Virus record (IMG/VR): IMGVR_UViG_3300045988_076504
Span: 1 to 64,000 of that record
Length of the DNA: 64,000 bases
From: a virus
Reading direction: 5' to 3' (one strand)
A model generated the notes under the pieces. That model saw only the letters and a program-made list of their open reading frames with translations. It was not told the DNA's origin and did not search any database. This document shows, one piece after another, positions 2,765 through 52,721 of this stretch. The stretch's first letter is position 1. The number at the start of each line of letters is the position of its first letter. The position numbers were made by a program, and so were the translations under genes.

Positions 2765-2875
2765 TTTATTTACCCTCGAGCTGGGATTTTATTTAATGCT
2801 CTTAATTCCTGTTTCTACAGGCAATATTCTCATTTTAACCAACTGCTACTATTATTCACAGTATTCAATAGAGAC

Positions 2876-3061
2876 TCAAGGATGTTTGTATGCTACTATT
2901 GTAGCTATTATTGTTATAAATCCTATTGTTGACAGTATTGTTTTTATAAGCGGACTTGCTATCGCACTTATTATGGCTAATACTACAAAAATTAAGACTG
3001 CAATAAATATATACATAGTGAATGCACCAAACACTTTTAAAAATATTTTCCAATTAAACAT
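2876..3061 (-). CDS. small membrane protein (2 predicted TM segments)
   Basis: 61 aa, almost entirely hydrophobic (FGAFTMYIFIAVLIFVVLAIISAIA...IGFITIIATIVAY). It starts 27 nt downstream of the tRNA-like gene. Confidence 0.5.
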   Translation of the reverse strand: MFNWKIFLKVFGAFTMYIFIAVLIFVVLAIISAIASPLIKTILSTIGFITIIATIVAYKHP

Positions 3062-3087
3062 ATTGTTACAATTAGTTTACAAAAGTG

Positions 3088-3156
3088 TTAGACTATTAGG
3101 ATTCGAACCTAAAATAACAGATAAGTCTGACGTGTTACCAGTTACACTATAGTCTA
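3088..3156 (-). ncRNA. tRNA-like gene (paralogue of the nearby tRNA-Gln) with a collapsed anticodon loop; possibly a pseudo-tRNA
   Basis: The minus strand reads TAGACTA TA GTGT AACTGGTA ACAC G TCAGA CTTA TCTGT TATT TTAGG TTCGAAT CCTAA TAGTCTA A. Acceptor, D arm and T arm are perfect. The D arm, anticodon stem and variable loop are nearly identical to tRNA-Gln at 3789-3860. The anticodon loop is only 4 nt (CTTA) and pair 27:43 is T:T. Confidence 0.6.
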
Positions 3157-3297
3157 AATAAGGCCAGTTCTCAAGCTGGAAATCTCAAACAGAACGACAA
3201 GGACTTTCACCTTATACACCTTTCGGTATGGTTAAATAACCACATGTCTATATTTCACCACGTTCCTCGATTTACTTCCTTACATTTAAAATATTAG

Positions 3298-3426
3298 TTC
3301 CAAACAGGGAATCGAACCCTTATCGATACATGTCTCGACAAATCACCATCCACATAATTCACTTCCACGACGTCAATGCATGTGCCGCTTAAATGAATAG
3401 GTTTGCTATGCGGTAGATTATTTGGA
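3298..3426 (-). ncRNA. 129-nt element ending in a tRNA-type T-arm and 7-bp acceptor-like helix; not a canonical tRNA
   Basis: The minus-strand 3' end reads AGGG TTCGATT CCCT GTTTGGA. GTTTGGA can pair with TCCAAAT (3426-3420) located 128 nt upstream. No canonical D or anticodon arm could be folded between them. Confidence 0.3.
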
Positions 3427-3715
3427 CCCGCGTCTCTCCGCGTGTCATACGTATGGATTAACTGTTCAACATTCACCGCTATCGGCTATAACCTTGCGCT
3501 AGATTATAACGTAGTCGGAGTTTACAGGCTTACAACTGTCACAATGGCTGTTTTAATTAATCACATGTAAACGAGCAGTTTTGAGGACATGCTCAGGTCC
3601 CTACAGACAGTTTATACTCGTGATGGAGTTGACATTATGAATACCAAATGTCGTTTGTAATAATGAAGAATAATGTATGCATATTTATTTAGATTTAGTG
3701 AATAATCTTATAAAA

Positions 3716-3743
3716 ACTATGCTATTTTCACGAACCGCATAGT
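3716..3743 (-). repeat. conserved-loop hairpin, copy 1
   Basis: Plus strand ACTATGC-TATTTTCACGAACC-GCATAGT: 7-bp stem and 14-nt loop. On the minus strand it is followed by TTTTTAT. Confidence 0.75.
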
Positions 3744-3788
3744 AAAAACATATGGAAATATACCTACATGTCTAATAAAATGTAAGCG

Positions 3789-3860
3789 TCAGGCTGTCAG
3801 GACTCGAACCTGAAATAACAGAACCAAAATCTGTTGTGTTCCCAATTACACTACAACCCG
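3789..3860 (-). tRNA. tRNA-Gln (anticodon UUG)
   Basis: Minus strand: CGGGTTG TA GTGT AATTGGGA ACAC A ACAGA TTTTGGT TCTGT TATT TCAGG TTCGAGT CCTGA CAGCCTG A. This is a 72-nt cloverleaf with all arms paired (two G:U pairs in the acceptor). Anticodon positions 34-36 are TTG. CCA is not encoded. Confidence 0.85.
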
Positions 3861-3862
3861 TA

Positions 3863-3894
3863 ATATACATCTATTTTCACAAACCGATGTATAT
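3863..3894 (-). repeat. conserved-loop hairpin, copy 2 (2 nt upstream of the tRNA-Gln 5' end)
   Basis: Plus strand ATATACATC-TATTTTCACAAACC-GATGTATAT: 9-bp stem and 14-nt loop. Confidence 0.75.
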
Positions 3895-3929
3895 ATAATG
3901 TTTAACATCTAAAATATATAATGGCTCCT

Positions 3930-3980
3930 AATCCGACACTACTGTGTTTCGTCTTAATTTTCAAAGACTCATCAGGGATT
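3930..3980 (-). ncRNA. hammerhead self-cleaving ribozyme (stem I open, stems II and III capped)
   Basis: Minus strand: AATCC CTGATGA GTCTT-TGAAAATT-AAGAC GAA ACAC-AGTA-GTGT C / GGATT. All core residues are present: C3-U4-G5-A6-U7-G8-A9, the G10.1:C11.1 pair, G12-A13-A14, the A15.1:U16.1 pair and C17. Stem I is 5 bp, stem II 5 bp, stem III 4 bp. The predicted cut is after C17, between plus coordinates 3935 and 3934. Confidence 0.85.
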
Positions 3981-3983
3981 TTT

Positions 3984-4015
3984 AAATACACCTATTCTCA
4001 CGAACCAGTGTATTT
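3984..4015 (-). repeat. conserved-loop hairpin, copy 3 (between the stop of gene 4029-4343 and the hammerhead)
   Basis: Plus strand AAATACAC-cTATTCTCACGAACCa-GTGTATTT: 8-bp stem, with the same loop core carrying one substitution. Confidence 0.75.
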
Positions 4016-4028
4016 TTACCAACTATGT

Positions 4029-4343
4029 CTATGGTTTCTTATGTGTTATGTCGTCAATTTTTTGACAGGATAGCCAAAAGTCTACCCCATCGTCAGATTC
4101 ATCAAAACCATCTCCTGTATTGTCTACTTGGTTGATGTAGACCTTTACGGCGATTGTTCTAAACTCTTCATAAGCATCAATTATTTGCTGTTGATGCTCA
4201 ACTTTTTTTTCGAGGGCTGTTACCTCGCTCTCTGAAGTACATCCAGAAAGAATCGCTGTTAACCACATTAGTACGAATACTAATATGATTGTGCTTAGAG
4301 GAATCCATGTTTCCGTCCAAGCTTCTTTGTCGTCTTTGTCCAT
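4029..4343 (-). CDS. membrane-anchored hypothetical protein
   Basis: 104 aa with one TM segment (LSTIILVFVLMWLTAILSG). It ends on TAG, used here as a stop. Confidence 0.6.
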   Translation of the reverse strand: MDKDDKEAWTETWIPLSTIILVFVLMWLTAILSGCTSESEVTALEKKVEHQQQIIDAYEEFRTIAVKVYINQVDNTGDGFDESDDGVDFWLSCQKIDDITHKKP

Positions 4344-4738: not shown

Positions 4739-5440
4739 TTAAAGTGGTGACACTTCCTCAACATCTACTGTTGGGATGTCCATGCCTTTAACATCTGTTA
4801 AGCCGTAACATCTCAGTTCATCTTCGTTGAACTTAGCACCTGCTTTTTGTGCATCCCTTATGGAATACATGTTTCTAATGCGTTGTTCTGCAACATCCTC
4901 AGGGCGTTGACCAGCGAGGAAATTGTCAGGTTCTCCGAATGTTTGGCATAGGACCTGGAACGATGTGAATAGCTTAACAGTGTCTGAATTAGGATTACAT
5001 ACCCAGGCTCCTGCAGCATGTCCGTTTAATTCCTGTGAGTATTTCATACACATAGGAACTGGGAGTTTGTAATCAACAAGTTGACAAGCTTTAATTAATG
5101 TCAAGTCCTTCTTACGAGGACCGAATGACATCAATGCTTCGAGCTGTTGCTCTGTCAGGACGTAACGTCCGTCTTTAGCATTGGCGATGAGTGTGTTAAC
5201 ATCGGCTTGACCGTTGTTACTCACTACTGCCAATACAGCGTTTTTTAGTGTCTCATTGGAGGCTTTACCATCGTTCTGGTAAGTCTGCCATATCTGCATA
5301 GCGTCAAAATTAACGCATACGAGATGACATCTAAGAATATATTTATCGGTCTCTGGCTGACGCTGTCCGTTAGCATCAGCTTTTTTACGTGGATGAGAGA
5401 CCTCAATGCGATCCACGTAATAGTCGAAAATCTTTGCCAT
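4739..5440 (-). CDS. hypothetical protein, GC-richer than its neighbours; acidic C-terminal tip (possible ssDNA-binding protein, speculative)
   Basis: 233-aa ORF ending ...DIPTVDVEEVSPL. It has its own terminator and a long structured 5' leader. Confidence 0.75.
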   Translation of the reverse strand: MAKIFDYYVDRIEVSHPRKKADANGQRQPETDKYILRCHLVCVNFDAMQIWQTYQNDGKASNETLKNAVLAVVSNNGQADVNTLIANAKDGRYVLTEQQLEALMSFGPRKKDLTLIKACQLVDYKLPVPMCMKYSQELNGHAAGAWVCNPNSDTVKLFTSFQVLCQTFGEPDNFLAGQRPEDVAEQRIRNMYSIRDAQKAGAKFNEDELRCYGLTDVKGMDIPTVDVEEVSPL

Positions 5441-5578
5441 AATATTGCAATTTTAATGGTTTGGCTATATATTAACACAGTCTTTCCTGTGAGTCAGGTA
5501 TGCGAACGTATGAAAAGGGATGGGGAAAAATAGTCTCCCATTTACCCCTTTCCTATACAACCTTCTCGCCATACCAAA

Positions 5579-5675
5579 GCGACCGAAGGTCGAATCTTTG
5601 AAAAAGTATAAATTAGCTGACTTGAACCGCATGGACCGAGCGACGAAGTCGCGAGGAGAGATATAAAAATGAGTA
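5579..5675 (-). repeat. direct repeat R1 (hairpin + TAAATTAGC core + GC-rich tail)
   Basis: The sequence is gCGACCgaaGGTCGaatctttgaaaaagtaTAAATTAGCtgac...gaGCGACgaaGTCGCgaggagagat...atgagtag. It parallels R2 at 6121-6210. Confidence 0.65.
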
Positions 5676-6120
5676 GTTTTACGACATACTCAGGTCGGGC
5701 TGTCCGCTGTTCAGCCTGTGTACAGATGTCACCATCATCACGGAAATACAGAGTGCTCATCTGATTGCTCAGACTTCTTTCTTTTACGGTCATCCCTGTA
5801 TCGATGTTGCCAACCTGCCGCTGTAGACAGGACCTATTCACAGCGTTGTACCGCTGTAGGGAAGGCGTCTCCTTTACCCCGTTGCATTTTCATACGTGAT
5901 GCAACAAACGATGTGTTTGACGAGAACACATAACGACGATGGGTTGGATACCATCATCATGCAGTTTACATACGCAAGGTCATAACCTTGGTAGACAAGC
6001 TCTCCTGCATGATAAGCGCTGAGTTGCGCTAATGTAATCACGTTCGCTTTTAAGGTGTAGAGCGATAACTAACATACGTTTGAAACCAGGTACCGTGTAC
6101 TCCCTGGAAACATACTTTTG

Positions 6121-6210
6121 TTGACCGTTAAGCCGGTCAAACCTCTGAAAGAGTCTAAATTAGCCCACACACAGCGCAGCAGAGCGAGCGAAGCGAGCGA
6201 GAGATGAGTG
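6121..6210 (-). repeat. direct repeat R2
   Basis: The sequence is TTGACCGttaagcCGGTCAAacctctgaaagagtcTAAATTAGCccac...gagcgagcgaagcgagcgagagatgagtgag. The order of elements matches R1. Confidence 0.65.
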
Positions 6211-6231
6211 AGCCAAAAGCCCCGAAGGGGC
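6211..6231 (-). terminator. rho-independent terminator after gene 6239-6436
   Basis: Minus strand: GCCCC-TTC-GGGGC followed by TTTTGG, 8 nt after the TGA. Confidence 0.6.
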
Positions 6232-6238
6232 TTAAGAC

Positions 6239-6436
6239 TCATTTAAACATGCTGTGCCACAGGTGTGAGAATTGCACAAATGCAATAGTTCCACCAACGG
6301 CAAACATTGTTGCTATAATGTACAGTATAACACAATTCAACGTTGTTGGAAGAGTGCATACTGCAAGCATTATGGCTACAGCCCATGCGCACGCTGCAAC
6401 CGTGAGCACGACAACGATTTCAATAAACTTGCTCAT
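6239..6436 (-). CDS. small membrane protein (2 TM segments)
   Basis: 65-aa hydrophobic ORF followed by a minus-strand terminator. The competing plus-strand ORF 6204-6470 starts inside that terminator. Confidence 0.5.
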   Translation of the reverse strand: MSKFIEIVVVLTVAACAWAVAIMLAVCTLPTTLNCVILYIIATMFAVGGTIAFVQFSHLWHSMFK

Positions 6437-6515
6437 AACGATATCATTTAGATCGATAATAAAGAAATAGTTGCCTTTTGTCTACACGTTGGGAGGCATA
6501 ACCCAACACGCCTTA

Positions 6516-6710
6516 CTACACGTTTTTGTCCGCAACAGGTACAGCAAGCACTGTGATGGTATGATAATTACCAACGTGATGCTCCTGCACATGTTTTGCG
6601 AACTCAGGGTTCGCAAACGCCTCAGCAACGCTGTTGTACAGCCCGCTGTAGCGATGGTCCCAGCGACCATTGCGATTACGTGTAGAAAGACGAAGCTGAT
6701 ACTTCATCAT
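6516..6710 (-). CDS. hypothetical protein
   Basis: 64-aa ORF. It ends with tandem stops TAG-TAA (6518-6513). The GCTAATTTA motif lies about 40 nt upstream of the ATG. Confidence 0.5.
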   Translation of the reverse strand: MMKYQLRLSTRNRNGRWDHRYSGLYNSVAEAFANPEFAKHVQEHHVGNYHTITVLAVPVADKNV

Positions 6711-6747
6711 TTCTATTTGTAATTAAATTCGAATCGTTTTAACGACC

Positions 6748-6756
6748 TAAATTAGC
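6748..6756 (-). promoter_or_regulatory. third copy of the GCTAATTTA (minus-strand) motif; candidate promoter element
   Basis: The same 9-mer as at 5609-5617 and 6156-6164, always in the same orientation. This copy is about 40 nt upstream of the ATG at 6710. Confidence 0.35.
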
Positions 6757-7025
6757 CGACTCATTAAGCTTGCCACGGGGGTAGTTTCGTTTCTTCGACG
6801 ACTCGGGGAGGTTGAATTCAGCTGTTTCGCGTTTCTGCACTTTTATCATAAAAAATTTTTATTTCGTGTTTTCGTATTTATATAAAAAAAATAAAATTTT
6901 AATTTTTGTTCTTGAGCTTGTCGAATGTAAATTCACGTAAGTGCGCAAACAACGAAGTTGTGACATAAAAAAATCGAGATCAGCTAAGCTGACCCCGATC
7001 ATCAAAGATTTCTAAAACCGCATTA

Positions 7026-7115
7026 TTAAATTTTACGTAAATACCAACCTATTACAGCTATTATAAACAACATTATAAGAATGCCTATTGTTACCAATAT
7101 GAGTTTACATGTCAT
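7026..7115 (-). CDS. 29-aa hydrophobic peptide (putative)
   Basis: MTCKLILVTIGILIMLFIIAVIGWYLRKI. Its ATG overlaps the stop of the upstream small ORF. It is below the ORF-track size cutoff. Confidence 0.3.
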   Translation of the reverse strand: MTCKLILVTIGILIMLFIIAVIGWYLRKI

Positions 7116-12381: not shown

Positions 12382-12431
12382 AAGTAATCCTTGGTGGGTA
12401 TCAAAAGTCGGGTTCGATTCCCGAATTACTA
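12382..12431 (+). ncRNA. tRNA-like acceptor/T-arm minihelix (too short for a tRNA)
   Basis: AAGTAAT cc TTG-gtgggtat-CAA aag TCGGG TTCGATT CCCGA ATTACTA. It has a perfect T-arm and a 6-bp acceptor-like helix, but only 19 nt where the D and anticodon arms should be. Confidence 0.3.
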
Positions 12432-12554
12432 CTTATTCAAAAAGTAATTGAGTCCATGTCAGGAGGCTCTGACGTTAAAGTGCCTCATAATGCCCATTTG
12501 CGTACGTTAGCTAGCGCGCCGGGCTCTTTTGTCCAATGAATAATTGAATATATA

Positions 12555-13457
12555 ATGGAAAATAAAATATATAAACTCTCAGACGAACAGTTTGTTGAGT
12601 TACTCAAGAAAAGTTCAACAATATCTGAAGTATTGTTTAAACTTGGTTATACAGTTAAAGGAAACTCTTGGGGATATTCTCAAATAAAAAGAAGAATGGA
12701 TGATCTGAATTTAGACCATTCTATATTCAAGGGGAAATCCGCTATTATAAAAACTACCAAGCTAAACAATGTAAAGAAAGAAGATATACTAAAAGAAAAT
12801 TGTAAGCATCAACGTACAGTATTAAGAAGATACATAATCAAAAACAACTTGATACCCTATAAGTGTGCAATATGTGGATGCACCGAATGGCAAGGGAAAA
12901 CGTTAAGTTTGGAACTTGACCATATAAACGGAATAAATAATGACAATAGATTAGAAAACCTTAGATTTTTATGTCCTAATTGCCATAGTCAAACATCAAC
13001 ATATGGAAGCAGAAATCAACAGCTTAATAGTTCTGAATATGATATATCAGACGACTTGAGAAAGATGGTTGAAGAGAAATACGACGAAGTTAAAAGTGTT
13101 AAAAAGGTATCGTCTATACTTGGAATACGAAGGTGTGTTGTTACGAAAATAGTTAACGAGTCTGGTCAAAAACATTCTAATCAGAAATATATAATAAGGT
13201 ATGATAAAGATTGGAATGAACTTGCAAGATATGGTTCTCTCGTAGAAGCTGCCAAGGCTTTGATAGAGGCTGATGAAGTTAAAACCAATAGAGTAAAGAC
13301 CTGCACTAGAACTATAATGTACAATAAAGATAATTTTTGGTTGGACAGTCATTGGAAAATATTGGATGGTAGCGGGATAATAAATAATCCGTTATTAGAA
13401 CCTTCTCTAATTGACTCGGAAGACACTGTTGACGAGGCGCAAGCGAAAGCAGCGTGA
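12555..13457 (+). CDS. HNH homing endonuclease
   Basis: 300 aa containing CAICGC...ELDHINGINNDNRLENLRFLCPNCHSQT (HNH/His-Me finger). Stop is TGA and there is no internal TAG. Confidence 0.85.
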   Translation: MENKIYKLSDEQFVELLKKSSTISEVLFKLGYTVKGNSWGYSQIKRRMDDLNLDHSIFKGKSAIIKTTKLNNVKKEDILKENCKHQRTVLRRYIIKNNLIPYKCAICGCTEWQGKTLSLELDHINGINNDNRLENLRFLCPNCHSQTSTYGSRNQQLNSSEYDISDDLRKMVEEKYDEVKSVKKVSSILGIRRCVVTKIVNESGQKHSNQKYIIRYDKDWNELARYGSLVEAAKALIEADEVKTNRVKTCTRTIMYNKDNFWLDSHWKILDGSGIINNPLLEPSLIDSEDTVDEAQAKAA

Positions 13458-13571
13458 CAGACTAAACGAGAAGGCTGACCTTAGGGTTGGATGCAATAGT
13501 CGAGCTATGAACCCCGGAGGAGTGGGGGCAGCACCTACATGGGTAACTATTAAAAATAATAAAAAGCATAT

Positions 13572-14108
13572 ATGGAACTGAAATTTAAAAAACTAGATGA
13601 TAAGGCTGTAATGCCGATTAGAGCTTACAAAAGTGATGCAGGATTAGATTTAACATGTACAAAAATTGTACCTGTACGTAATGCTTGTAATCAGCTTTTG
13701 TTGGAGTATCATACAGGTCTTGCTGTAGAAATTCCTGAAGGTTATGTAGGTCTTTTATTTCCACGTAGTAGTGTATTTAAGACATCTTTAATACAATCAA
13801 ACTGTGTGGGTGTTATTGATAGCGGTTATCGTGGAGAAGTTAAGGCAATTTTTAGAAATACTACAGATGTTATTCCTGCAGTATTTCAAGAAGGTGAAAG
13901 ATTCTGCCAATTGGTAATTGTACCAATTCCAGAGATTACAGTAGTAGAATCCTCAGAATTGAGCGAAGGAGATCGTGGTGAAAATGGTTACGGTTCCTCA
14001 GGAAATACAAACAAAGACAAAAATATTAGCGCAGAGCAACCTTCTGATGACGATCAGACAGAGACTCCAGCGGCGGTTGCTGGTCAAGCAACTGAGGCAG
14101 ATGCATAA
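13572..14108 (+). CDS. dut: dUTP diphosphatase (trimeric dUTPase) with a low-complexity acidic C-terminal extension
   Basis: All five dUTPase motifs are visible: AGLDL, GLLFPRSS, GVIDSGYRGE, ERFCQLVI and RGENGYGSSG. Confidence 0.9.
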   Translation: MELKFKKLDDKAVMPIRAYKSDAGLDLTCTKIVPVRNACNQLLLEYHTGLAVEIPEGYVGLLFPRSSVFKTSLIQSNCVGVIDSGYRGEVKAIFRNTTDVIPAVFQEGERFCQLVIVPIPEITVVESSELSEGDRGENGYGSSGNTNKDKNISAEQPSDDDQTETPAAVAGQATEADA

Positions 14109-14184: not shown

Positions 14185-14703
14185 ATGTTTGATATACAAG
14201 GAAACAAAATTATACTAAAAACAGACGAACTTGCAATACCTCCATTCAAGGATTATTACAATAACGCAAAAGACAAATCTAGAGCTATACAAGATATTGA
14301 ATTTGTAATATGGCGTTATAGATGGAATACCCCATACGAAGCGTATCCAGAAAAAGAACGTACATGGAGAGTTGCAAAAGATGTTTTTAAAGATGAACAT
14401 TATGAACCAACAGCAGAGATAAAAGAATTAGCAAAACGTTTCAATGAGTTTCAAGAAACACCTATGACGCGATTGCTCACATCTTCAAAACATGCTGCTG
14501 AGGCGATAATGAATGTAATGAACGAATATTCACAAGAAGACCTTGATATAGACACCGCAACTAAAGTATCAAAGCTACTTAAAGATATAAGTGGTATTAT
14601 TAAATCGCTAGATTTAGCGATGAAACAAGCAAAAGCAGAACAAGCTGAAACAGGTCGTGTAAAAGGTGGTGGTGTTATAGGTCTATATGAAAGCCCTAAA
14701 TAA
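14185..14703 (+). CDS. hypothetical protein immediately upstream of terL
   Basis: 172-aa ORF. Its TAA overlaps the terL ATG (TAATG). Confidence 0.7.
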   Translation: MFDIQGNKIILKTDELAIPPFKDYYNNAKDKSRAIQDIEFVIWRYRWNTPYEAYPEKERTWRVAKDVFKDEHYEPTAEIKELAKRFNEFQETPMTRLLTSSKHAAEAIMNVMNEYSQEDLDIDTATKVSKLLKDISGIIKSLDLAMKQAKAEQAETGRVKGGGVIGLYESPK

Positions 14704-17700
14704 TGGTTGATTTTAATTAGCATATAAAGAATACTAAGAAGTTCTGTGAAGCGGCAGAATTTTTCAAAGTACATAAATGTTATACTTTAGCTCCCAGAGG
14801 TACGACAGATTATGTTAAATATTGGGAGCGCGAAACAGACAGATGTTTAAATGGGTACACAGCTCCAGACGGTGATCAAATAACAGGCTATCATTATTTC
14901 TATCTTAATTACTGTCCTATTATGAGATTGGATGAAACAGAATATACAGATAGAAACGGAGATACACGTAAACGAAGAGAACGTATATTTGATTTCCCTA
15001 AGTTCTGGGATTATGATTATTATTATTTTAATGCTGTAGAAGAAGCTGAAACTGTCGGTAAACACATGGCGGTATTAAAATGTCGTCAGAGAGGTTATAG
15101 TTTTAAAGGAGCTGCGATGTTAGTTCGTAATTATGAGCTTATTCCAGGATCCAAGAACTTTGCAGTGGCTTCTGAACAGAAATTCTTAGTCGGTGACGGT
15201 TTGTTAACAAAAGCTTGGCAGATCATGGACTTTATAGATAAGAATACAGCGTGGGCGAAGTAGCGTTTGACGTCTACTCGTATGGAACGTGTGTCTGGTT
15301 ATAAAGTTACTGACGAGTTTGGTAAATAGACAGAATAGGGTTATTTATCGAGCATTACAGGAATCACTCTTAAAAATGACCCAGAACGTATTCGTGGTAC
15401 CCGTGGTAGATTAGTATTGTGGGAGGAGAGTGGAAAATTCCCAAGCTTGTTAGATGCTTGGCGTGTTGAACAACCTGCAGTAGAGACGGACGATGGTGTA
15501 GCATTCGGATTAATGATTAGTTTTGGTACAGGAGGTACTGAAGGAGCTTCGTTTGACGGATTGAAGGAGTTGTTTTATAAACCAAAAGCTTATAACGTGC
15601 TTTCGTTCCCAAATATTTGGGACGACAACGCAGAATAGACAGAATGTGGTTTCTTTGTACCAGCTTGGAGTAATCTTGAATCTTTTGATGAAGACGGTAA
15701 GTATATCTACATGGATGAAGACGGAAATAGTTTTCGTGAAAAAACTATTGAAGAACTTATAAAGCAACGTAATATTATTAAAGACGGAGGAGCTAGCCAA
15801 TAGTCTATAGACAGGTTTATATCCGAGCGTCCTATAAAGCCACAAGAAGCTGTATTGGAGCTTGGTAAAAATATATTTCCACGTAAACTTTTAATGGACC
15901 AACTTACACGTTTACGTACAAATAAGAAGCTTCAAAGTATGAAGCATATTGTAGATCTTAGTTGGGACGGAAATGGTAACGTAATAGCTACAGAAAAGAA
16001 AACAGGCGATATTACAAACTATCCGTTAAAGAAAGATTAGAAGCCTGCAGGATCCGTTGTGATATGGGAGTACCCAGTAAAGGATCCTCCATTTGGATTA
16101 TACATAGGAGGCTGTTTGACACCTGGTGAAAAAGTTTGTACGTAGCGTGGATTGATAAATGTTGAGGATGTTACTTTAGACGATAAGCTTATAAACAAAG
16201 ATGGAAAGTTTGTAGAAATAAAAAACCTTTAGAGGTATGATAAGGTAAACGAACCTATTTTCACATTGAAACCGTATGGTTCGTTTAGAACTACAACGTT
16301 TACCGGAGAACATCCTATATGGATACATAATAAAGGCTTTGTAAAAGCCAAAAATGTAAAGTAGGGAGATTGGCTGGAAATACCAAATACGTATAAAATA
16401 GACTGTATTGAAGATGACGATCGTCTTGCAAAATTGTATTATTTTTACGGCTTGTGGTTAGGAGATGGATTTTGTAACAAAAACGGAAATTCTCATGACA
16501 TATATTTGTCTATCGGAAAGAACGAAACAGATCTCGCATAGTTTTATGATCAACTTGTTGCGGAGTTGTTCGATAGAAAATGTATACATGTGCATAAAGA
16601 TAGAGAAGAGACTCGGAGATTTACAGACAAACGGTTATTTTAGGAACTTAAATCTTTATTTGGAACAAACGCACACAACAAGAGAATTCCAGAATGTATA
16701 AAAAAACTACCATACAATTACAAATTGCATTTCTTACAAGGGTATCTCGATTCTGATGGTTCTGTATTTTTAGATAATGGAAAAGTAAGAACAAACTTCA
16801 CAAGTGTGAACTTAGAACTTCTAGAAGATGTTCAAGATATGCTTTTTGGAATGGGTATCGCAAATAGTATCGTAATACATCAAAAAGAAACTACAAACAA
16901 ACAAGGTGTTCATTCGCAACAATCATATAGAATAAATATAAGTAGATCACATCAGATATCTTTAGCACTATTTCCTATATTTAACAGCAGAAAAATTAAA
17001 TTATTAAGTACTGCTGAGTACACATCATATGATAGAATGGATGTGAAATTCGCAGATGATAAAACACTGTTAAAAATTTAGAATGTAAATGATTCGTCAT
17101 ACACAGGAGTTGTATATAATTTTGAATGTGAGACACATACATTTATGTGTAGAAACATTTTAACACACAACTGCGACCCGTTAACACATCAGCGGGGTAT
17201 AATCGAGCAAAAACGGTGAAAGTCTAGAACAGAAAACACCGTGCTAATCTTACAGATTGCGAAAGGCTGTAAGACAGTGTAACGCATAGGAGATGAATAA
17301 ATATAATTCTCCCACGAGTGCTCGACACCATTTTTGGTGATGATATATGCTGAACTACATGGGGACATGTAGAAGTTAAGATAAAAAACTTAGCGATAAC
17401 AAATTGATGATCACGACGAATCGTTTACAAACTCATTAGGGTCAACATTTATATTTAAACGTGTTCAAGCAGGAGAAGCTTGGACAGATGTAATAGTAGC
17501 TGAGTATTCTGGAAGACCGGATACAGCGGAAGAATACTATGAAAACGTTCGTAAACTACTATTGTTCTATAATGCGAGATTGTTATTTGAGAACGAACGT
17601 AAAGGTATATATCCATATTTTACAAACAAACATTGTGATTACTTATTAGCCGATTAGCCAGATAAAGTAATCAGTGAATTATTTAAGAATTCTACAGTAC

Positions 17701-50670: not shown

Positions 50671-52721
50671 CAAATTATAAATATATAAAGAATCAAAAAC
50701 CGAGATATGGCGATGGCAAGTGGGATTGGAATGATTGGTATAATGATACGAAAGGTATTATATCTTTTAATCAACCGAGCGGAAATAAACATCTAACATG
50801 GGGTAACGTACCTGGTCTTGAGAGTGTTATTCGAAGCGATATACAAACAGCTAGTCCAAATCAATTAAATAATATGGTTAACAAACCAGAACATTCGGAA
50901 ATAAAACCAGGTTCTGAAAACGGAGGTTCATCTAAAGGCGTATCATCAACAGGATTATCTTGGGATCCTACATCAGCATTAATGTCTACAGCTAATTTTG
51001 TTGGTGATGTGTTTAGCGCATATAATAGACCTGTTGCAAACGCATCCGAACTTGCTTCTCAAGCTGGTACATCTTATGGAAATGTAGGAGGAGTACAATA
51101 TCAAAGACAGAATGCTGTTGACGTTGATCAGGCTGTATAGAATGCTAAAGAATAGGGGAACCAAGGAACAATGTCAACAGCTATGAGTGGTTTAAGTGCA
51201 GGAGCTGCTATAGGTTCTATAGGCGGACCACTCGGCGCAGGAATAGGTGCTGTTGTTGGAGGACTTGGTGGACTTTTATTTGGAAATAGCGCAAAACGTA
51301 GAGCTATGAAACGAGCACAACGTCAAGGTGAATTAGCACAAAGAATGGCTGTAAATACTAATATATTTAACAGAGCACAAGCTCAGTCAGATTTGATGAA
51401 ACAGCAATATATGTAGAAATACGGAAATACTCAAGGTGGTATACTGTATGCTAATAAAGGAAAAGATATACCGATGTATAATAGTGGTAAAGATAAAGTA
51501 TGGTCTCCTGACGGATATGTTTCTGGATTACACAATTCTTATGTAGGTAAAGGCGAAGTGATAGCCAACTTTAGCAGCGGCAAAGCTTCTGTAATCACAA
51601 AAGGTAAGGTTGGAGTTGATAATCAGAAATCATCGGTTAGTGAAAATGACGATAATGTAATACTCGGCAATGATGTTGATTTTACAACAGGAAGGACATT
51701 CGCAGAACAAGGTAGACCATATGCAGACAAATTACATTTCATAAACCAATCTGAAAAGAAGGTTGGAAAATACGGGAAATTGAGTTCTTTGAGTAAGAAT
51801 ACTCAAGATCTTTATAACAAACAAATAGGTTCTACTAAACAACAATTACTTGATGGTTTGAAAGATATTTCAGATAGACAAGCAGAACAACATAATTATG
51901 AGAACAACATGAAACAATATGCACATTTTGCGAATGGCAAATCTTCTGTATTCTATAATAAATGGTTACCATATATGCAAATGGCAGTACCTAGTCTAAC
52001 AGGTATTGCTGATGGAATCGGTAGATACATAAACGCTAACAAATAGAATATTGAAAATAGTGATACGTATTATAGAAATCCGTATGCACAACGTGCTCTA
52101 CAAGGTCTTGCAGGACTAAGATATGATGTAGATCCGGAGTTAAGACAATATGTGAATCAACAAGCTTATAATAAGTATGCAATAGATCAGCAAGGTGGTT
52201 TGACAGCTGGGCAGAAATATATAGCGAAGAATAGCTTGTATAATGATTATATAAATAATGTAGCTAAATTGTATGCAAACGCTAACAATATAAATAATCA
52301 ATACAAGGCACAGTATTATGATCAGCTTATGAAAGCTGGAGAAGCTGAAAGATCTGCTTTGACTGCAGCTAGACGTTACGATGCTGATATTTATGCTAAA
52401 GCTAGAGCTGCACAACTTAATATGGCAAATCAAGCACGTAAGGATGCACTTGAAAATCTTTATAGAATGGATAAGAGATTTGCAGATTATAAGATGTGGA
52501 AAGACACAAATAGGATTTACGAGCAGGATGTGGCTAATAAGAAACAAGATGTGCAAAATAGTTTTGATATAGCTAAAGAAACTGCTGCAAGTAATGAAAG
52601 AATCGCAAGAATGATGAATAATTCCAATCGTGTCGTTACAAATCCTATGTTTTATAGATTTACGCCAAGTAGTCTTTTTGATCAGTTAAACTTTAATTAT
52701 TCAAATTTCACGAAACGATGA
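50661..52721 (+). CDS. tail/cargo protein with a Gly-zipper hydrophobic segment, TAG-recoded
   Basis: Pieces 50874, 51171, 51474 and 52152 are all frame 0. The only upstream in-frame ATG is 50661, followed directly by TAG. It contains GLSAGAAIGSIGGPLGAGIGAVVGGLGGLLFG and ends at TGA 52719-52721. Confidence 0.6.

What the first reader, a model, noticed from the sequence alone, without database searches (positions are those of the whole stretch)
3088..3860. A tRNA-Gln(UUG) and a sibling with a 4-nt anticodon loop, but no CUA suppressor tRNA in this window
The tRNA at 3789-3860 is a clean tRNA-Gln(UUG). The gene at 3088-3156 shares its D arm (GTGT-AAYTGGKA-ACAC), anticodon-stem sequence (CAGA/TCTG), variable loop (TATT) and a good T-arm and acceptor. 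Its anticodon loop, however, is CTTA (4 nt), with a T:T mismatch at the stem base, so it cannot present an anticodon.

Given that TAG is decoded as Gln, a tRNA-Gln-derived suppressor is what one would expect at this position. This copy could be a decayed suppressor, an assembly error that removed 3 nt, or a tRNA-like RNA with another role. I searched both strands for T-arm signatures and for U-CUA-R loops with flanking stems and found no candidate.
Basis: partly seen in the sequence, partly recalled or inferred. Interest (0 to 1): 0.65.

Follow-up and report, generated by a model that had tools for sequence, protein, structure and literature searches.

The report
Anticodon-less tRNA look-alike; suppressor found elsewhere
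This gut crAss-like phage carries a real, inherited tRNA-shaped gene whose anticodon loop is only 4 bases long, but it is not a dead stop-codon suppressor: the phage's true UAG-reading tRNA lies 9 kb away in the same window, hidden from standard software because a 982-base mobile intron splits its anticodon.

Summary
All the RNA genes in the finding are on the minus strand. The tRNA-Gln(UUG) at 3789-3860 and the 69-nt sibling at 3088-3156 are both real (Rfam 59 and 56 bits). The sibling has perfect acceptor, D and T arms and a 4-nt anticodon loop. The same 69-nt form occurs in assemblies from at least five other samples, so it is not an assembly error.

The claim that the window has no CUA tRNA is wrong. 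A tRNA(CUA) lies on the + strand, with exons at 12491-12527 and 13510-13546. It is split between U35 and A36 by a 982-nt intron that encodes an HNH endonuclease, just upstream of dUTPase. Related phages have an uninterrupted tRNA(CUA) at that spot. The exons keep the cloverleaf through compensatory changes in all four stems.

The sibling is closest to tRNA-Gln(UUG) (79%) and not to the suppressor (52%). crAss-like phage cr273_1 has both a normal tRNA(CUA) and a 4-nt-loop tRNA-like with the same D arm. The sibling is therefore not a decayed suppressor.

Most likely it is a non-decoding tRNA-shaped module at the 3' end of a small structured RNA cassette, used for processing or stability. This function is inferred, not shown. 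A neutral relic of a tRNA-Gln duplicate is the main rival.

The parts
3088..3156 (-). tRNA-shaped RNA gene (the 'sibling') of the tRNA-Gln type. It has a 7-bp acceptor, 4-bp D stem, canonical D and T loops and a 5-bp T stem. The anticodon arm is reduced to 4 bp plus U:U, capped by the 4-nt loop CUUA. It cannot present an anticodon.
   Evidence: Rfam tRNA 56.3 bits. Cloverleaf is the MFE fold. Identical in 3 assemblies of this genome. 97% identical and the same length in 5 assemblies from other samples, with substitutions only at position 9 and in the loop (CTTA to TTTA).
3157..3295 (-). Leader of the sibling cassette. It holds a fourth copy of the conserved hairpin motif (stem ACGUG/CAUGU, loop GUGAAAUAUAGA, 3263-3242), followed by about 85 nt with two hairpins, one capped by a GNRA loop. 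Together with the sibling it forms a roughly 210-nt cassette present in some relatives and absent in others.
   Evidence: Absent from L003/L011, L001/L012 and L162-L171; present in L157-L161. 95% conserved, with a GNRA-preserving GAAA to GAGA change and G:U to A:U or G:C changes in the stems. No match in Rfam and none to the leader in the phage collection.
3789..3860 (-). Canonical tRNA-Gln(UUG), preceded by a conserved hairpin motif (3892-3865).
   Evidence: ARAGORN. Rfam 59 bits. Conserved in L001, L003 and L157-L171.
12491..12527 (+). 5' exon of the amber suppressor tRNA(CUA): acceptor 5' strand, D arm, anticodon-stem 5' strand and loop bases C32 U33 C34 U35.
   Evidence: Sequence TGCCCATTTGCGTACGTTAGCTAGCGCGCCGGGCTCT. 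Homologous to the 5' half of the uninterrupted tRNA(CUA) of L142 and to the 5' exons of L141 and L172.
12528..13509 (+). 982-nt intron inserted between U35 and A36 of the CUA anticodon. It carries an HNH endonuclease ORF (12555-13457, no in-frame TAG). The 3' 105 nt fold into P7-like and P8-like helices resembling the group I R/S core.
   Evidence: Pfam HNH E 2e-4. The ORF is coding throughout: mismatches at codon positions 1, 2 and 3 number 21, 18 and 96 against L141. Intron-less alleles in L142 and L140; intron-bearing alleles in L141 and L172. Helices GACUR/YAGUC and CUGAYC/GRUUGG each show one compensatory change. No Rfam intron hit.
13510..13546 (+). 3' exon of tRNA(CUA): A36 A37 C38, anticodon-stem 3' strand, variable loop, T arm with the non-canonical loop GGCAGCA, acceptor 3' strand and discriminator A. 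The dUTPase gene follows at 13572.
   Evidence: The spliced sequence folds into a perfect cloverleaf, -26.8 kcal/mol, with loop CUCUAAC. Across 5 suppressors, 95.2% of cells pair, 13 of 21 pairs show changes on both sides, and 0 of 500 shuffles reach this.

Best explanation
The gene at 3088-3156 (minus strand) is a real, inherited, tRNA-shaped RNA. It derives from the phage tRNA-Gln(UUG) lineage, and its anticodon loop has been reduced to four bases, so it cannot decode.

It is neither the phage's amber suppressor nor a remnant of it. The suppressor is a separate gene in the same window (+ strand, exons 12491-12527 and 13510-13546). Its CUA anticodon is split between U35 and A36 by a 982-nt, group I-like intron that encodes an HNH homing endonuclease. 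The intron must be spliced out before TAG-containing late genes can be read.

The sibling sits at the 3' end of a small optional cassette: a conserved hairpin motif, an ~85-nt structured leader, then the tRNA-like.

I infer, but have not shown, that it works as a tRNA-like processing and stability module:
- Host RNase P would cut at its 5' end, defining the 3' end of the leader RNA.
- tRNA 3'-end enzymes would trim it.
- The compact fold would protect the transcript.

This resembles tRNA punctuation in mitochondria and the mascRNA element of MALAT1. Only the acceptor/T-arm helix matters for such a role, which explains why the anticodon arm is free to shrink.
For: Shown:
- The tRNA fold is real: Rfam 56.3 bits and an MFE cloverleaf.
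- It is reproducible and heritable. Three assemblies of this genome are identical. Five assemblies from other samples have the same 69-nt length and no stem substitutions.
- Relative to the closest tRNA-Gln (L001), pairs 1:72 and 50:64 changed on both sides and stayed paired.
- A true tRNA(CUA) exists in the window, with covariation in all four stems. It lies where L140, L142 and cr273_1 carry theirs, just before dUTPase.
- cr273_1 and cr272_1 have a tRNA(CUA) as well as a tRNA-like with the same D arm. That tRNA-like has a 5-bp anticodon stem of different sequence capped by a 4-nt loop (CUUG), and a compensated tertiary pair 19:56 (G:C to A:U).

Supporting the processing idea:
- In the five other Oafivirinae genomes examined and in this one, a tRNA-like follows the permuted tmRNA. 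Its acceptor and T arms are intact but its middle is variable or missing.
- This genome has two further acceptor/T-arm mini tRNA-likes: L007 11468-11516 and window 12383-12431.
- A tRNA follows RAGATH-15 RNA directly in L016.
- The same RNA cluster holds a hammerhead ribozyme with covarying stems, and a weak twister-like match lies in the corresponding cluster of cr273_1.
- Leader hairpins change in structure-preserving ways.
- In L158-L161 a deletion removed the neighbouring 61-aa ORF but stopped 5 nt past the tRNA-like.

From established knowledge: an acceptor/T-arm minihelix is a sufficient substrate for bacterial RNase P (McClain, Guerrier-Takada and Altman 1987).
Against: - No transcription or processing data exist.
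- The cassette is missing from the closest IMG/VR relatives and from ten other related loci, so it is dispensable.
- Divergence among the copies I found is only about 3%, so the lack of stem substitutions is weak evidence of constraint.
- The loop sequence itself is not conserved (CUUA versus UUUA).
- The leader's folding energy is not better than that of shuffled sequence (z -0.23), and it matches no known family.
- The sibling and the cr273_1 element may have arisen independently (68% identity).
- The intron's class is unproven. There is no Rfam hit, I found no P1/internal guide pairing, and the Bohxovirus copy ends in A rather than G.
Confidence: 0.45

Rival explanations
1. Neutral relic. 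A duplicated tRNA-Gln(UUG) lost three bases of its anticodon loop, is now a non-functional pseudogene, and has simply not yet decayed further.
For: - The lesion disables decoding.
- The cassette is absent from many close relatives and so is dispensable.
- Known copies differ by only 2 of 69 nt, so there has been little time for decay to show.
- The loop sequence varies.
- Phage genomes commonly contain tRNA pseudogenes, and a TAG-recoded Crassvirales genome was reported with two low-scoring tRNA-like loci (bioRxiv 10.64898/2026.08.21.746148).
Against: - Every stem and both tertiary-interaction loops are intact, and the only defect is a clean loop truncation that leaves a closed hairpin.
- Compensatory changes at 1:72 and 50:64 relative to the nearest tRNA-Gln.
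- cr273_1 keeps a 4-nt-loop tRNA-like with a fully different but fully paired anticodon stem and a compensated 19:56 pair.
- About 20 distinct tRNA-Gln-type scaffolds in IMG/VR have shortened anticodon arms, most with 7/7 acceptor pairing that the search pattern did not select for.
- The deletion in L158-L161 spares the element.
Confidence: 0.3
2. Decoy or sponge. A tRNA-Gln body without an anticodon binds and titrates a factor that recognises tRNA shape, without being cleaved or used in translation. Candidate factors are an anticodon nuclease of host defence, a modification enzyme, an aminoacyl-tRNA synthetase or amidotransferase, or the CCA-adding enzyme.
For: - It keeps the full L-shape determinants and a U1:A72 pair typical of tRNA-Gln.
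- tRNA-Gln-type scaffolds with truncated anticodon arms recur in unrelated phages, often as the only tRNA-like gene within about 7 kb.
- From general knowledge, U34-modified tRNAs (Gln, Lys, Glu) are common targets of anticodon nucleases.
Against: - No associated protein gene or defence context was found. Neighbours in the IMG/VR family, read from their sequences without a family search, look like replication or methylase genes.
- Anticodon nucleases and GlnRS mostly need the anticodon loop for binding.
- This reading does not explain the mini tRNA-likes that lack D and anticodon arms altogether.
Confidence: 0.12
3. Decayed amber suppressor. A former tRNA-Gln(CUA) lost its anticodon.
For: It is of the tRNA-Gln type, it lies in a phage that reads TAG as Gln, and no CUA tRNA is found by standard tools.
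Against: - The window encodes an intron-split tRNA(CUA) under structural selection at the syntenic suppressor locus.
- The suppressor family is unrelated in sequence to the sibling (52-67% identity versus 72-79% to tRNA-Gln UUG).
- CUUA/UUUA cannot be made from CUCUAAC by a single 3-nt deletion.
- cr273_1 has both kinds of gene.
Confidence: 0.03
4. Unconventional decoder. The top pair of the stem opens to give a 6-nt loop ACUUAU, and the RNA still reads a codon (for example UAA or UAG) on the ribosome.
For: ARAGORN in relaxed mode models a 6-nt loop with a 2-base 'anticodon' uu. The centroid structure has a 3-bp stem and 6-nt loop.
Against: - No known tRNA decodes with a 4- or 6-nt loop lacking the U33 turn and a purine at 37.
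- TAA is the commonest true stop in the window's genes, so reading it would be harmful.
- Relatives have UUUA in place of CUUA.
Confidence: 0.03
5. Sequencing or assembly artefact that removed 3 nt.
For: Coverage of one assembly is low (contig name cov_7.08).
Against: - The sequence is identical in three assemblers' outputs.
- The 69-nt length is the same in five assemblies from different samples and studies.
- A 4-nt loop is also present in the RefSeq genomes cr273_1 and cr272_1.
Confidence: 0.01

Closest known systems
mascRNA / MALAT1 and MEN-beta tRNA-like elements, and the mitochondrial 'tRNA punctuation' model
   Same: A tRNA-shaped element at the 3' end of a non-coding transcript. It has good acceptor and T arms and a reduced, non-decoding anticodon arm, and is proposed to be cut by RNase P to define the upstream RNA's 3' end.
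   Different: Those are eukaryotic nuclear or organellar systems with experimentally shown cleavage. Here the host is a bacterium, the element is phage-encoded and clearly descended from tRNA-Gln, and processing has not been tested.
Phage tRNA pseudogenes and 'undetermined' tRNAs (ARAGORN tRNA-??? with 2-base anticodons, tRNAscan Undet)
   Same: A tRNA-scoring gene without an assignable anticodon in a phage genome. Several IMG/VR relatives of this type are reported by ARAGORN as tRNA-???.
   Different: The lesion is confined to the anticodon loop, and all other features are intact and recur in other lineages. That pattern is not what random decay predicts.
tRNA-like downstream of the permuted tmRNA in Oafivirinae crAss-like phages (cr273_1, cr272_1, cr7_1, cr124_1, cr130_1, cr131_1)
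   Same: The cr273_1 and cr272_1 element shares the D arm GUGU-AACUGRUA-ACAC and a 5-bp stem capped by a 4-nt loop CUUR. All of them keep the acceptor and T arms while the middle varies.
   Different: The genomic position differs (after the tmRNA versus after a leader in the small-RNA cluster). Identity to the sibling is only 68%, so homology versus convergence is open. RefSeq annotates these as part of the tmRNA or, in cr7_1, as 'tRNA-Cys'.
Group I introns in bacterial tRNA anticodon loops (cyanobacterial tRNA-Leu UAA and tRNA-fMet, Azoarcus tRNA-Ile, Agrobacterium tRNA-Arg)
   Same: This comparison concerns the suppressor's intron. The insertion is in the anticodon loop directly after a U. 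The intron ends in G in two of three copies. R/S-like P7 and P8 helices are present. A homing-endonuclease ORF and intron-less alleles in relatives are also found.
   Different: - The host gene is a phage amber suppressor.
- Only 27 nt on the 5' side and 52 nt on the 3' side are non-coding, so any ribozyme core must overlap the HNH ORF.
- There is no Rfam RF00028 hit, and no P1/guide pairing was recognised.
- A 2014 review states that all phage group I introns known then were in protein-coding genes (PMC3984707).
Suppressor tRNA(CUA) 'code-switch' genes of TAG-to-Gln recoded phages (genetic code 15; Yutin 2021, Borges 2022, Peters 2022)
   Same: A tRNA(CUA) placed at the boundary between TAG-free genes and TAG-containing late genes, just before dUTPase as in cr273_1, L140 and L142.
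   Different: It is interrupted by an intron and has non-canonical D and T loops, so it escapes ARAGORN and Rfam. This is one concrete instance of the 'divergent suppressor that escapes detection' proposed in PMC7886860.
Bacterial Y RNA (YrlA) tRNA-like domain
   Same: A non-decoding RNA that mimics the tRNA D/T elbow and acceptor, with a shortened anticodon stem.
   Different: In YrlA the acceptor-like stem continues into a Ro60-binding helix, and the gene lies next to rsr. Here the flanks do not pair, and no Ro60 gene was noticed near the element, though none was searched for.

Membership tests
Canonical decoding tRNA | Cloverleaf with 7-bp acceptor, D arm, T arm and conserved tertiary positions (U8, G18G19, T54-psi55-C56, A58) | tested here: met
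   Rfam RF00005 56.3 bits against a gathering score of 29. All these stems pair perfectly. D loop AACUGGUA, T loop UUCGAAU.
Canonical decoding tRNA | 5-bp anticodon stem with a 7-nt loop (U33, three anticodon bases, purine 37) | tested here: not met
   The arm is 14 nt rather than 17: UCAGA-CUUA-UCUGU with a U:U at 27:43. ARAGORN default gives no call, and relaxed mode gives a 2-base 'anticodon'.
Amber suppressor tRNA(CUA) - the sibling at 3088-3156 | CUA anticodon, or descent from the phage's suppressor gene family | tested here: not met
   There is no CUA in the loop. Identity is 52% to the window's suppressor against 79% to tRNA-Gln(UUG) of L001. The locus is not syntenic with the suppressors of relatives.
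Amber suppressor tRNA(CUA) - the split gene at 12491-13546 | Cloverleaf with loop CUCUAAC after joining the exons, conserved across relatives with covariation, at the syntenic locus | tested here: met
   MFE cloverleaf of -26.8 kcal/mol. 95.2% of cells paired, 13 of 21 pairs with double changes, 0 of 500 shuffles reaching this. L142 and L140 carry an uninterrupted tRNA(CUA) at the same place.
Amber suppressor tRNA(CUA) - the split gene at 12491-13546 | Production of a ligated, aminoacylated tRNA in infected cells | not testable with these tools
   Needs RT-PCR or tRNA-seq. The T loop GGCAGCA and D loop ACGUUAGCUA are non-canonical, and ARAGORN rejects even the spliced form.
Group I intron | U at the last exon position and G as the last intron base | tested here: inconclusive
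   The U is met in all three copies. The terminal G is met in the window and L141 but is A in Bohxovirus L172.
Group I intron | Conserved catalytic core (P3-P8, with R/S elements forming P7) | tested here: inconclusive
   RNAalifold finds GACUR/YAGUC and CUGAYC/GRUUGG helices, each with one compensatory change. ACAGACUAAA and AUAGUC resemble the R and S consensus, which I recalled from memory. No Rfam RF00028 hit at E up to 10. P1 and the guide sequence were not identified.
Group I intron | Mobile-intron signature: a homing-endonuclease ORF, and intron-plus and intron-minus alleles with a precise insertion point | tested here: met
   HNH domain. The ORF is under coding selection. L142 and L140 lack the intron, while the window, L141 and L172 have it at exactly U35|A36.
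tRNA-like processing module (mascRNA-like / tRNA punctuation) | Intact acceptor/T-arm helix, dispensable or reduced anticodon arm, position at the end of another RNA | tested here: met
   The sibling follows a conserved structured leader. Analogous elements follow the tmRNA in six genomes, with only the acceptor and T arms constant.
tRNA-like processing module (mascRNA-like / tRNA punctuation) | Cleavage by RNase P at the 5' end and tRNA-type 3' processing in vivo | not testable with these tools
   No transcript data are available.
tRNA pseudogene | Evolution at the neutral rate, with stem-breaking substitutions and no conservation | tested here: inconclusive
   0 of 2 substitutions fall in stems among copies only 3% diverged, which is too little divergence to decide. 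The presence/absence polymorphism shows it is dispensable.

The most novel reading that the evidence does not exclude
Anticodon-less tRNA-Gln bodies, with the anticodon loop cut to 4-6 nt and everything else intact, may be a recurrent and selected class of phage RNA with a dedicated function. Possible functions include a decoy against tRNA-targeting host defence or a regulator of Gln-tRNA supply during the TAG-to-Gln code switch. On this reading the sibling and the 4-nt-loop elements of cr273_1 and several IMG/VR phage families are members of that class. In the same phage group, the code switch would itself be gated by splicing of a mobile intron that sits inside the suppressor's anticodon.
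Probability: 0.15. Interest if true: 0.8.

Novelty: new variant of a known kind. Interest (0 to 1): 0.62.

Why it matters
Several papers note that some TAG-recoded Crassvirales, including a member of the Suoliviridae, have no detectable suppressor tRNA. They suggest host suppressors or divergent phage tRNAs that escape detection (PMC7886860; bioRxiv 10.64898/2026.08.21.746148).

This window gives a concrete, checkable answer for one lineage. The suppressor is there, but it is split inside its anticodon by an endonuclease-carrying intron and has unusual D and T loops. Intron-aware searches could recover 'missing' suppressors elsewhere. Splicing also becomes a possible control point for the switch to late-gene translation. 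A 2014 review recorded no intron in any phage tRNA gene (PMC3984707).

The sibling shows that phage 'tRNA' hits without an anticodon need not be junk or errors. Similar truncated tRNA-Gln bodies and acceptor/T-arm mini-helices recur next to tmRNA, ribozymes and other structured RNAs in these phages. That points to tRNA shape being reused for RNA processing or another non-decoding role.

Tried and rejected
- Exact or degenerate pattern scans of IMG/VR for the sibling's two halves and its anticodon arm found nothing. The first scan found only ordinary tRNA-Gln(UUG).
- A D-arm-only scan returned mostly coding sequence and unrelated tRNAs.
- The metagenome scan gave a few more short-arm tRNA-Gln-like genes but no ortholog of the sibling.
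- A BLAST of the cassette against the phage collection matched only generic tRNAs.
- I looked for HDV-like/theta, twister or other ribozymes flanking the two tRNAs. Rfam at E up to 10 gave only the hammerhead upstream of tRNA-Gln.
- Relaxed ARAGORN, with and without introns, gave dozens of low-score calls. These included a 'tRNA-Pyl (cta)' at 52030-52108 inside a coding region, with no Rfam support. I judged them noise.
- I tried to recover the unseen ~36 kb of the genome. About 9.9 kb beyond the window start was obtained (L007), and about 7.6 kb beyond the window end in a 76%-identical relative (L139). Neither holds a tRNA(CUA). Three exact-protein look-ups failed. About 18-26 kb remain unseen.
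- I considered the tRNA-like at 12383-12431 as a remnant of the suppressor and rejected this. It is conserved alongside the real suppressor in L141.
- I looked for a P1/internal guide pairing for the intron by eye and found nothing convincing.
- I considered that the leader might encode a peptide. It holds only a 12-codon ORF, and I did not pursue it.
Full report
**Context.** The window comes from a crAss-like phage. Its thymidylate synthase, dUTPase and other genes match Crassvirales. The nearest named relatives are Suoliviridae/Oafivirinae. The same genome was recovered as ~100-kb contigs from a Peruvian gut sample. Genes on the minus strand (96-10.1 kb) and on the + strand up to 14.1 kb have no in-frame TAG. 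Most of the long + strand ORFs from 14.7 to 54.4 kb carry 1-16 in-frame TAGs. In an alignment of ORF 14700-17219 with relatives, Gln is by far the commonest residue opposite TAG: 41 of 189, against a 3.2% background.

**Checking the observation.** Everything in the finding is on the minus strand.
- ARAGORN and Rfam both find tRNA-Gln(UUG) at 3789-3860.
- Rfam also finds a tRNA at 3088-3156 with 56.3 bits (E 2e-9). ARAGORN does not call it by default.
- Its sequence is UAGACUA UA GUGU AACUGGUA ACAC G UCAGA CUUA UCUGU UAUU UUAGG UUCGAAU CCUAA UAGUCUA A.
- The acceptor (7/7), D (4/4) and T (5/5) stems are perfect, and the D and T loops are canonical.
- The anticodon arm is three bases short: four pairs plus a U:U mismatch, capped by CUUA. 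The cloverleaf is the minimum-energy fold.
- The anatomical description is accurate and far beyond chance.

**Not an artefact.** Three independent assemblies of the same genome are identical over 2861-4100. I searched the protein database with the neighbouring 100-aa protein and pulled the contigs that encode its relatives. This gave five assemblies from other samples (L157-L161) that carry the element. All have the same 69-nt length and differ at two positions only: A9 to G, and the first loop base, giving UUUA. The 4-nt loop is heritable. The loop sequence itself is not fixed.

**The suppressor is in the window.** In cr273_1 a tRNA(CUA) sits just upstream of dUTPase. In the window, dUTPase is at 13572-14108. 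It is preceded by a 300-aa HNH endonuclease ORF at 12555-13457. Fetching dUTPase loci of relatives gave three kinds of allele:
- L142 and L140 carry an uninterrupted tRNA(CUA) about 25 nt before dUTPase.
- The closest relative, L141, and the window show no tRNA call.
- Reading the sequences resolves this. In L141, the first 34 nt of the L142-type tRNA end in ...GAAGG CUCU. A 983-nt insertion follows, and then AAC CCUUU ... UGGGGUA A. Joining the two pieces gives a tRNA that ARAGORN calls as (cta), nearly identical to L142's.

The window has the same insertion at the same point. Its 5' exon is 12491-12527, ending CCGGG CUCU. The intron is 12528-13509. The 3' exon is 13510-13546, starting AAC CCCGG. 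The spliced 74-mer folds into a perfect cloverleaf with loop CUCUAAC (-26.8 kcal/mol).

Compared with L141, the window's exons differ by compensatory changes in all four stems. On an alignment of five suppressors, 95.2% of cells pair, 13 of 21 pairs show changes on both sides, and no shuffle out of 500 reaches this. A third intron-bearing allele is in Bohxovirus PV686213.1, again with compensated exons.

The window's D loop (ACGUUAGCUA) and T loop (GGCAGCA) are unusual. This explains why even the spliced sequence escapes ARAGORN and why Rfam sees nothing. The gene sits at the boundary between TAG-free and TAG-containing genes, as expected for a code-switch tRNA.

**What kind of intron.** Evidence in favour of a group I-like intron:
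- The ORF is coding along its whole length, with mismatches to L141 at codon positions 1/2/3 of 21/18/96. It has an HNH domain.
- Only 27 nt (5') and 52 nt (3') are non-coding. Both ends of the intron are more conserved than its middle.
- RNAalifold on the last 105 nt of the three copies predicts a GACUR/YAGUC helix enclosing a CUGAYC/GRUUGG hairpin. Each has one compensatory change.
- The flanking sequences ACAGACUAAA and AUAGUC resemble the classical group I R and S elements that form P7.
- The exon ends in U, and the intron ends in G in two of three copies.
- Intron-less alleles exist, and the insertion is in the anticodon loop, as in all bacterial tRNA group I introns.

Evidence against:
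- No Rfam group I hit.
- No recognisable P1/guide pairing.
- The Bohxovirus copy ends in A.

I call it group I-like, unproven. A 2014 review states that all phage group I introns then known were in protein-coding genes (PMC3984707). My literature searches found no report of an intron in a phage suppressor tRNA.

**What the sibling is not.**
- It is 79% identical to the tRNA-Gln(UUG) of relative L001 and 72% to the window's own. It is only 52% identical to the window's suppressor.
- Relative to L001, pairs 1:72 and 50:64 changed on both sides and stayed paired.
- CUUA or UUUA cannot be produced from the suppressor loop CUCUAAC by a single contiguous 3-nt deletion. Either can be produced from a Gln-type loop YUUUGRN by loss of positions 35-37.
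- cr273_1 and cr272_1 carry a canonical tRNA(CUA). They also carry, right after their permuted tmRNA, a tRNA-like with the same D arm (GUGU AACUGAUA ACAC). It has a 5-bp anticodon stem of different sequence (ACACA/UGUGU) capped by the 4-nt loop CUUG. Its tertiary pair 19:56 has changed from G:C to A:U.
- 4-nt-loop tRNA-likes therefore coexist with real suppressors. The 'decayed suppressor' reading is not supported.

**What the sibling probably is.** It forms the 3' end of a ~210-nt cassette (about 3295-3084). The cassette is present in the window and L157-L161. It is absent from L003/L011, L001/L012 and ten further relatives. The cassette has three parts:
- It begins with a hairpin whose loop (GUGAAAUAUAGA) is a variant of a motif with exactly three perfect copies in the window. 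That motif is a covarying stem around GGUUYGUGARAAUAG. The perfect copies precede the hammerhead, tRNA-Gln and a larger structured RNA.
- About 85 nt with two hairpins follow. Between lineages these change in structure-preserving ways: GAAA to GAGA, G:U to A:U.
- The tRNA-like comes last.

Across this phage group, tRNA-shaped elements with intact acceptor and T arms but reduced or missing D and anticodon arms lie next to other structured RNAs:
- After the permuted tmRNA in cr273_1, cr272_1, cr7_1, cr124_1, cr130_1, cr131_1 and this genome.
- A 49-nt mini-helix at window 12383-12431, between a small ORF and the suppressor, conserved in L141.
- A tRNA-like 3' domain on the structured RNA at 3298-3426.
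- A tRNA abutting RAGATH-15 RNA in L016.

The acceptor/T-arm helix is the minimal substrate of bacterial RNase P (established knowledge). My best explanation is therefore that the sibling is a processing and stability module. The host's tRNA-maturation enzymes would cut and trim the cassette transcript at it. The anticodon arm would be free to shrink because nothing reads it. Self-cleaving ribozymes in the same clusters fit a theme of RNA punctuation: a hammerhead with covarying stems I and III, and a weak twister-like hit in cr273_1.

These steps are inferred. There are no transcript data, the copies I found are too similar to prove selection, and the cassette is dispensable.

**A wider pattern.** A spacing-based scan of IMG/VR looked for tRNA-Gln-type D arms followed too soon by a T loop. 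It returned about 20 distinct genes with short anticodon arms. Most have 7/7 acceptor pairing, which the pattern did not require. They include families with CUUG, UUUG or GCAU 4-nt loops. ARAGORN labels several of them 'tRNA-???', often as the only tRNA-like gene within about 7 kb. This argues that clean truncation of the anticodon loop in an otherwise intact tRNA-Gln body is recurrent. It keeps open a more specific function such as a decoy.

**Verdict.**
- Observation: partly confirmed. Both genes are real, but the 'no CUA tRNA' statement is wrong.
- Interpretation: partly supported. Only the 'tRNA-like RNA with another role' alternative survives.
- Novelty: the sibling is a new variant of a known kind (non-decoding tRNA-like RNAs).
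- Main interest: the by-product is an amber suppressor split in its anticodon by an HNH-carrying intron. It gives a concrete explanation for 'missing' suppressors in recoded Crassvirales.

Noticed in passing
window 3941-3994 (-), with stem I extending to about 3999-3936: Hammerhead ribozyme (CUGAUGAG ... CGAAAC ... GUC|) upstream of tRNA-Gln. The Rfam hit is sub-threshold (26.6 bits). However, stems I and III covary among the window, L003 and L001, and the core is 93-98% identical in cr273_1, cr272_1, cr131_1 and cr53_1.
   Followed up: partly
window 4013-3986, 3892-3865, 3743-3716 and 3263-3242 (all -): A conserved hairpin with a covarying 5-7-bp stem and the loop GGUUYGUGARAAUAG. Only three exact copies occur in the 64 kb; the fourth copy is a variant. 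One copy precedes each small-RNA unit. The same motif precedes CDSs after the tmRNA in cr130_1 and cr131_1. It could be a promoter, a regulatory site or a processing site; its function is unknown.
   Followed up: partly
window about 3541-3298 (-); tRNA-like 3' domain at 3426-3298: A structured RNA conserved in L003 and L157-L171. It ends in a tRNA-like domain with a 7-bp acceptor (UCCAAAU/GUUUGGA), a T arm (AGGG UUCGAUU CCCU), a long arm in the D position and a hairpin with a 7-8-nt loop. Fold z-score is -2.56. The window copy has a ~50-nt insertion relative to L003. No Rfam match.
   Followed up: partly
window 12383-12431 (+): A 49-nt mini tRNA-like with acceptor AGUAAU/AUUACU, a 19-nt linker and T arm UCGGG UUCGAUU CCCGA. 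It lies just after the stop codon of a 99-aa ORF and about 60 nt before the suppressor's 5' exon. It is conserved in L141.
   Followed up: partly
L007 11190-11420 and 11468-11516 (same genome, about 2.8-3.2 kb beyond window position 1; L007 + strand = window minus strand): A permuted (two-piece) tmRNA, Rfam RF04321 57.5 bits against a gathering score of 47, with a G3:U70 acceptor. A 49-nt acceptor/T-arm mini tRNA-like follows it. RefSeq already annotates tmRNA in related Oafivirinae genomes, but the trailing tRNA-likes are either unannotated or labelled 'tRNA-Cys' (cr7_1).
   Followed up: partly
window 2771-2851 (-): A divergent RAGATH-12-like RNA (33.7 bits against a gathering score of 75) directly upstream of the 100-aa ORF 2462-2764. 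Weak hits lie at the same place in L011 and L012. Full-score RAGATH-12 (97-107 bits) sits upstream of a homologous protein in the distant crAss-like contigs L016 and L017, which also carry RAGATH-15 abutting a tRNA (in L016).
   Followed up: partly
window about 5440-7100: A ~1.6-kb stretch in which the assemblies' gene callers find no gene (L007 1248-2914). G+C is 44-46%, against 35% for the window. It may be another large structured RNA.
   Followed up: no
L007 10724-11190 and 16101-18004 (outside the window): Further gene-free, relatively G+C-rich stretches in the same genome, flanking the tmRNA and downstream of the sigma-factor gene block. Candidate non-coding RNAs.
   Followed up: no
L172 (Bohxovirus PV686213.1) 1541-1640: This copy of the suppressor intron ends in ...UUUAACA (A, not G), although its exons keep a compensated cloverleaf. 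It either uses a different 3' splice determinant or is a defective allele.
   Followed up: no
IMG/VR loci L102-L128 (for example L103 9066-9135, L107 7523-7592, L125 519-588): Families of phage tRNA-Gln-type genes with 7/7 acceptor pairing and shortened anticodon arms (CUUG, UUUG or GCAU 4-nt loops, or 3-bp stems). ARAGORN calls several of them 'tRNA-???'. In one family the gene sits in a conserved early-gene neighbourhood among replication and methylase genes.
   Followed up: partly
window 3062-2876 (-) versus L158-L161: The 61-aa predicted membrane protein ORF just downstream of the sibling is deleted in one lineage. The deletion starts 5 nt after the tRNA-like's discriminator base.
   Followed up: no
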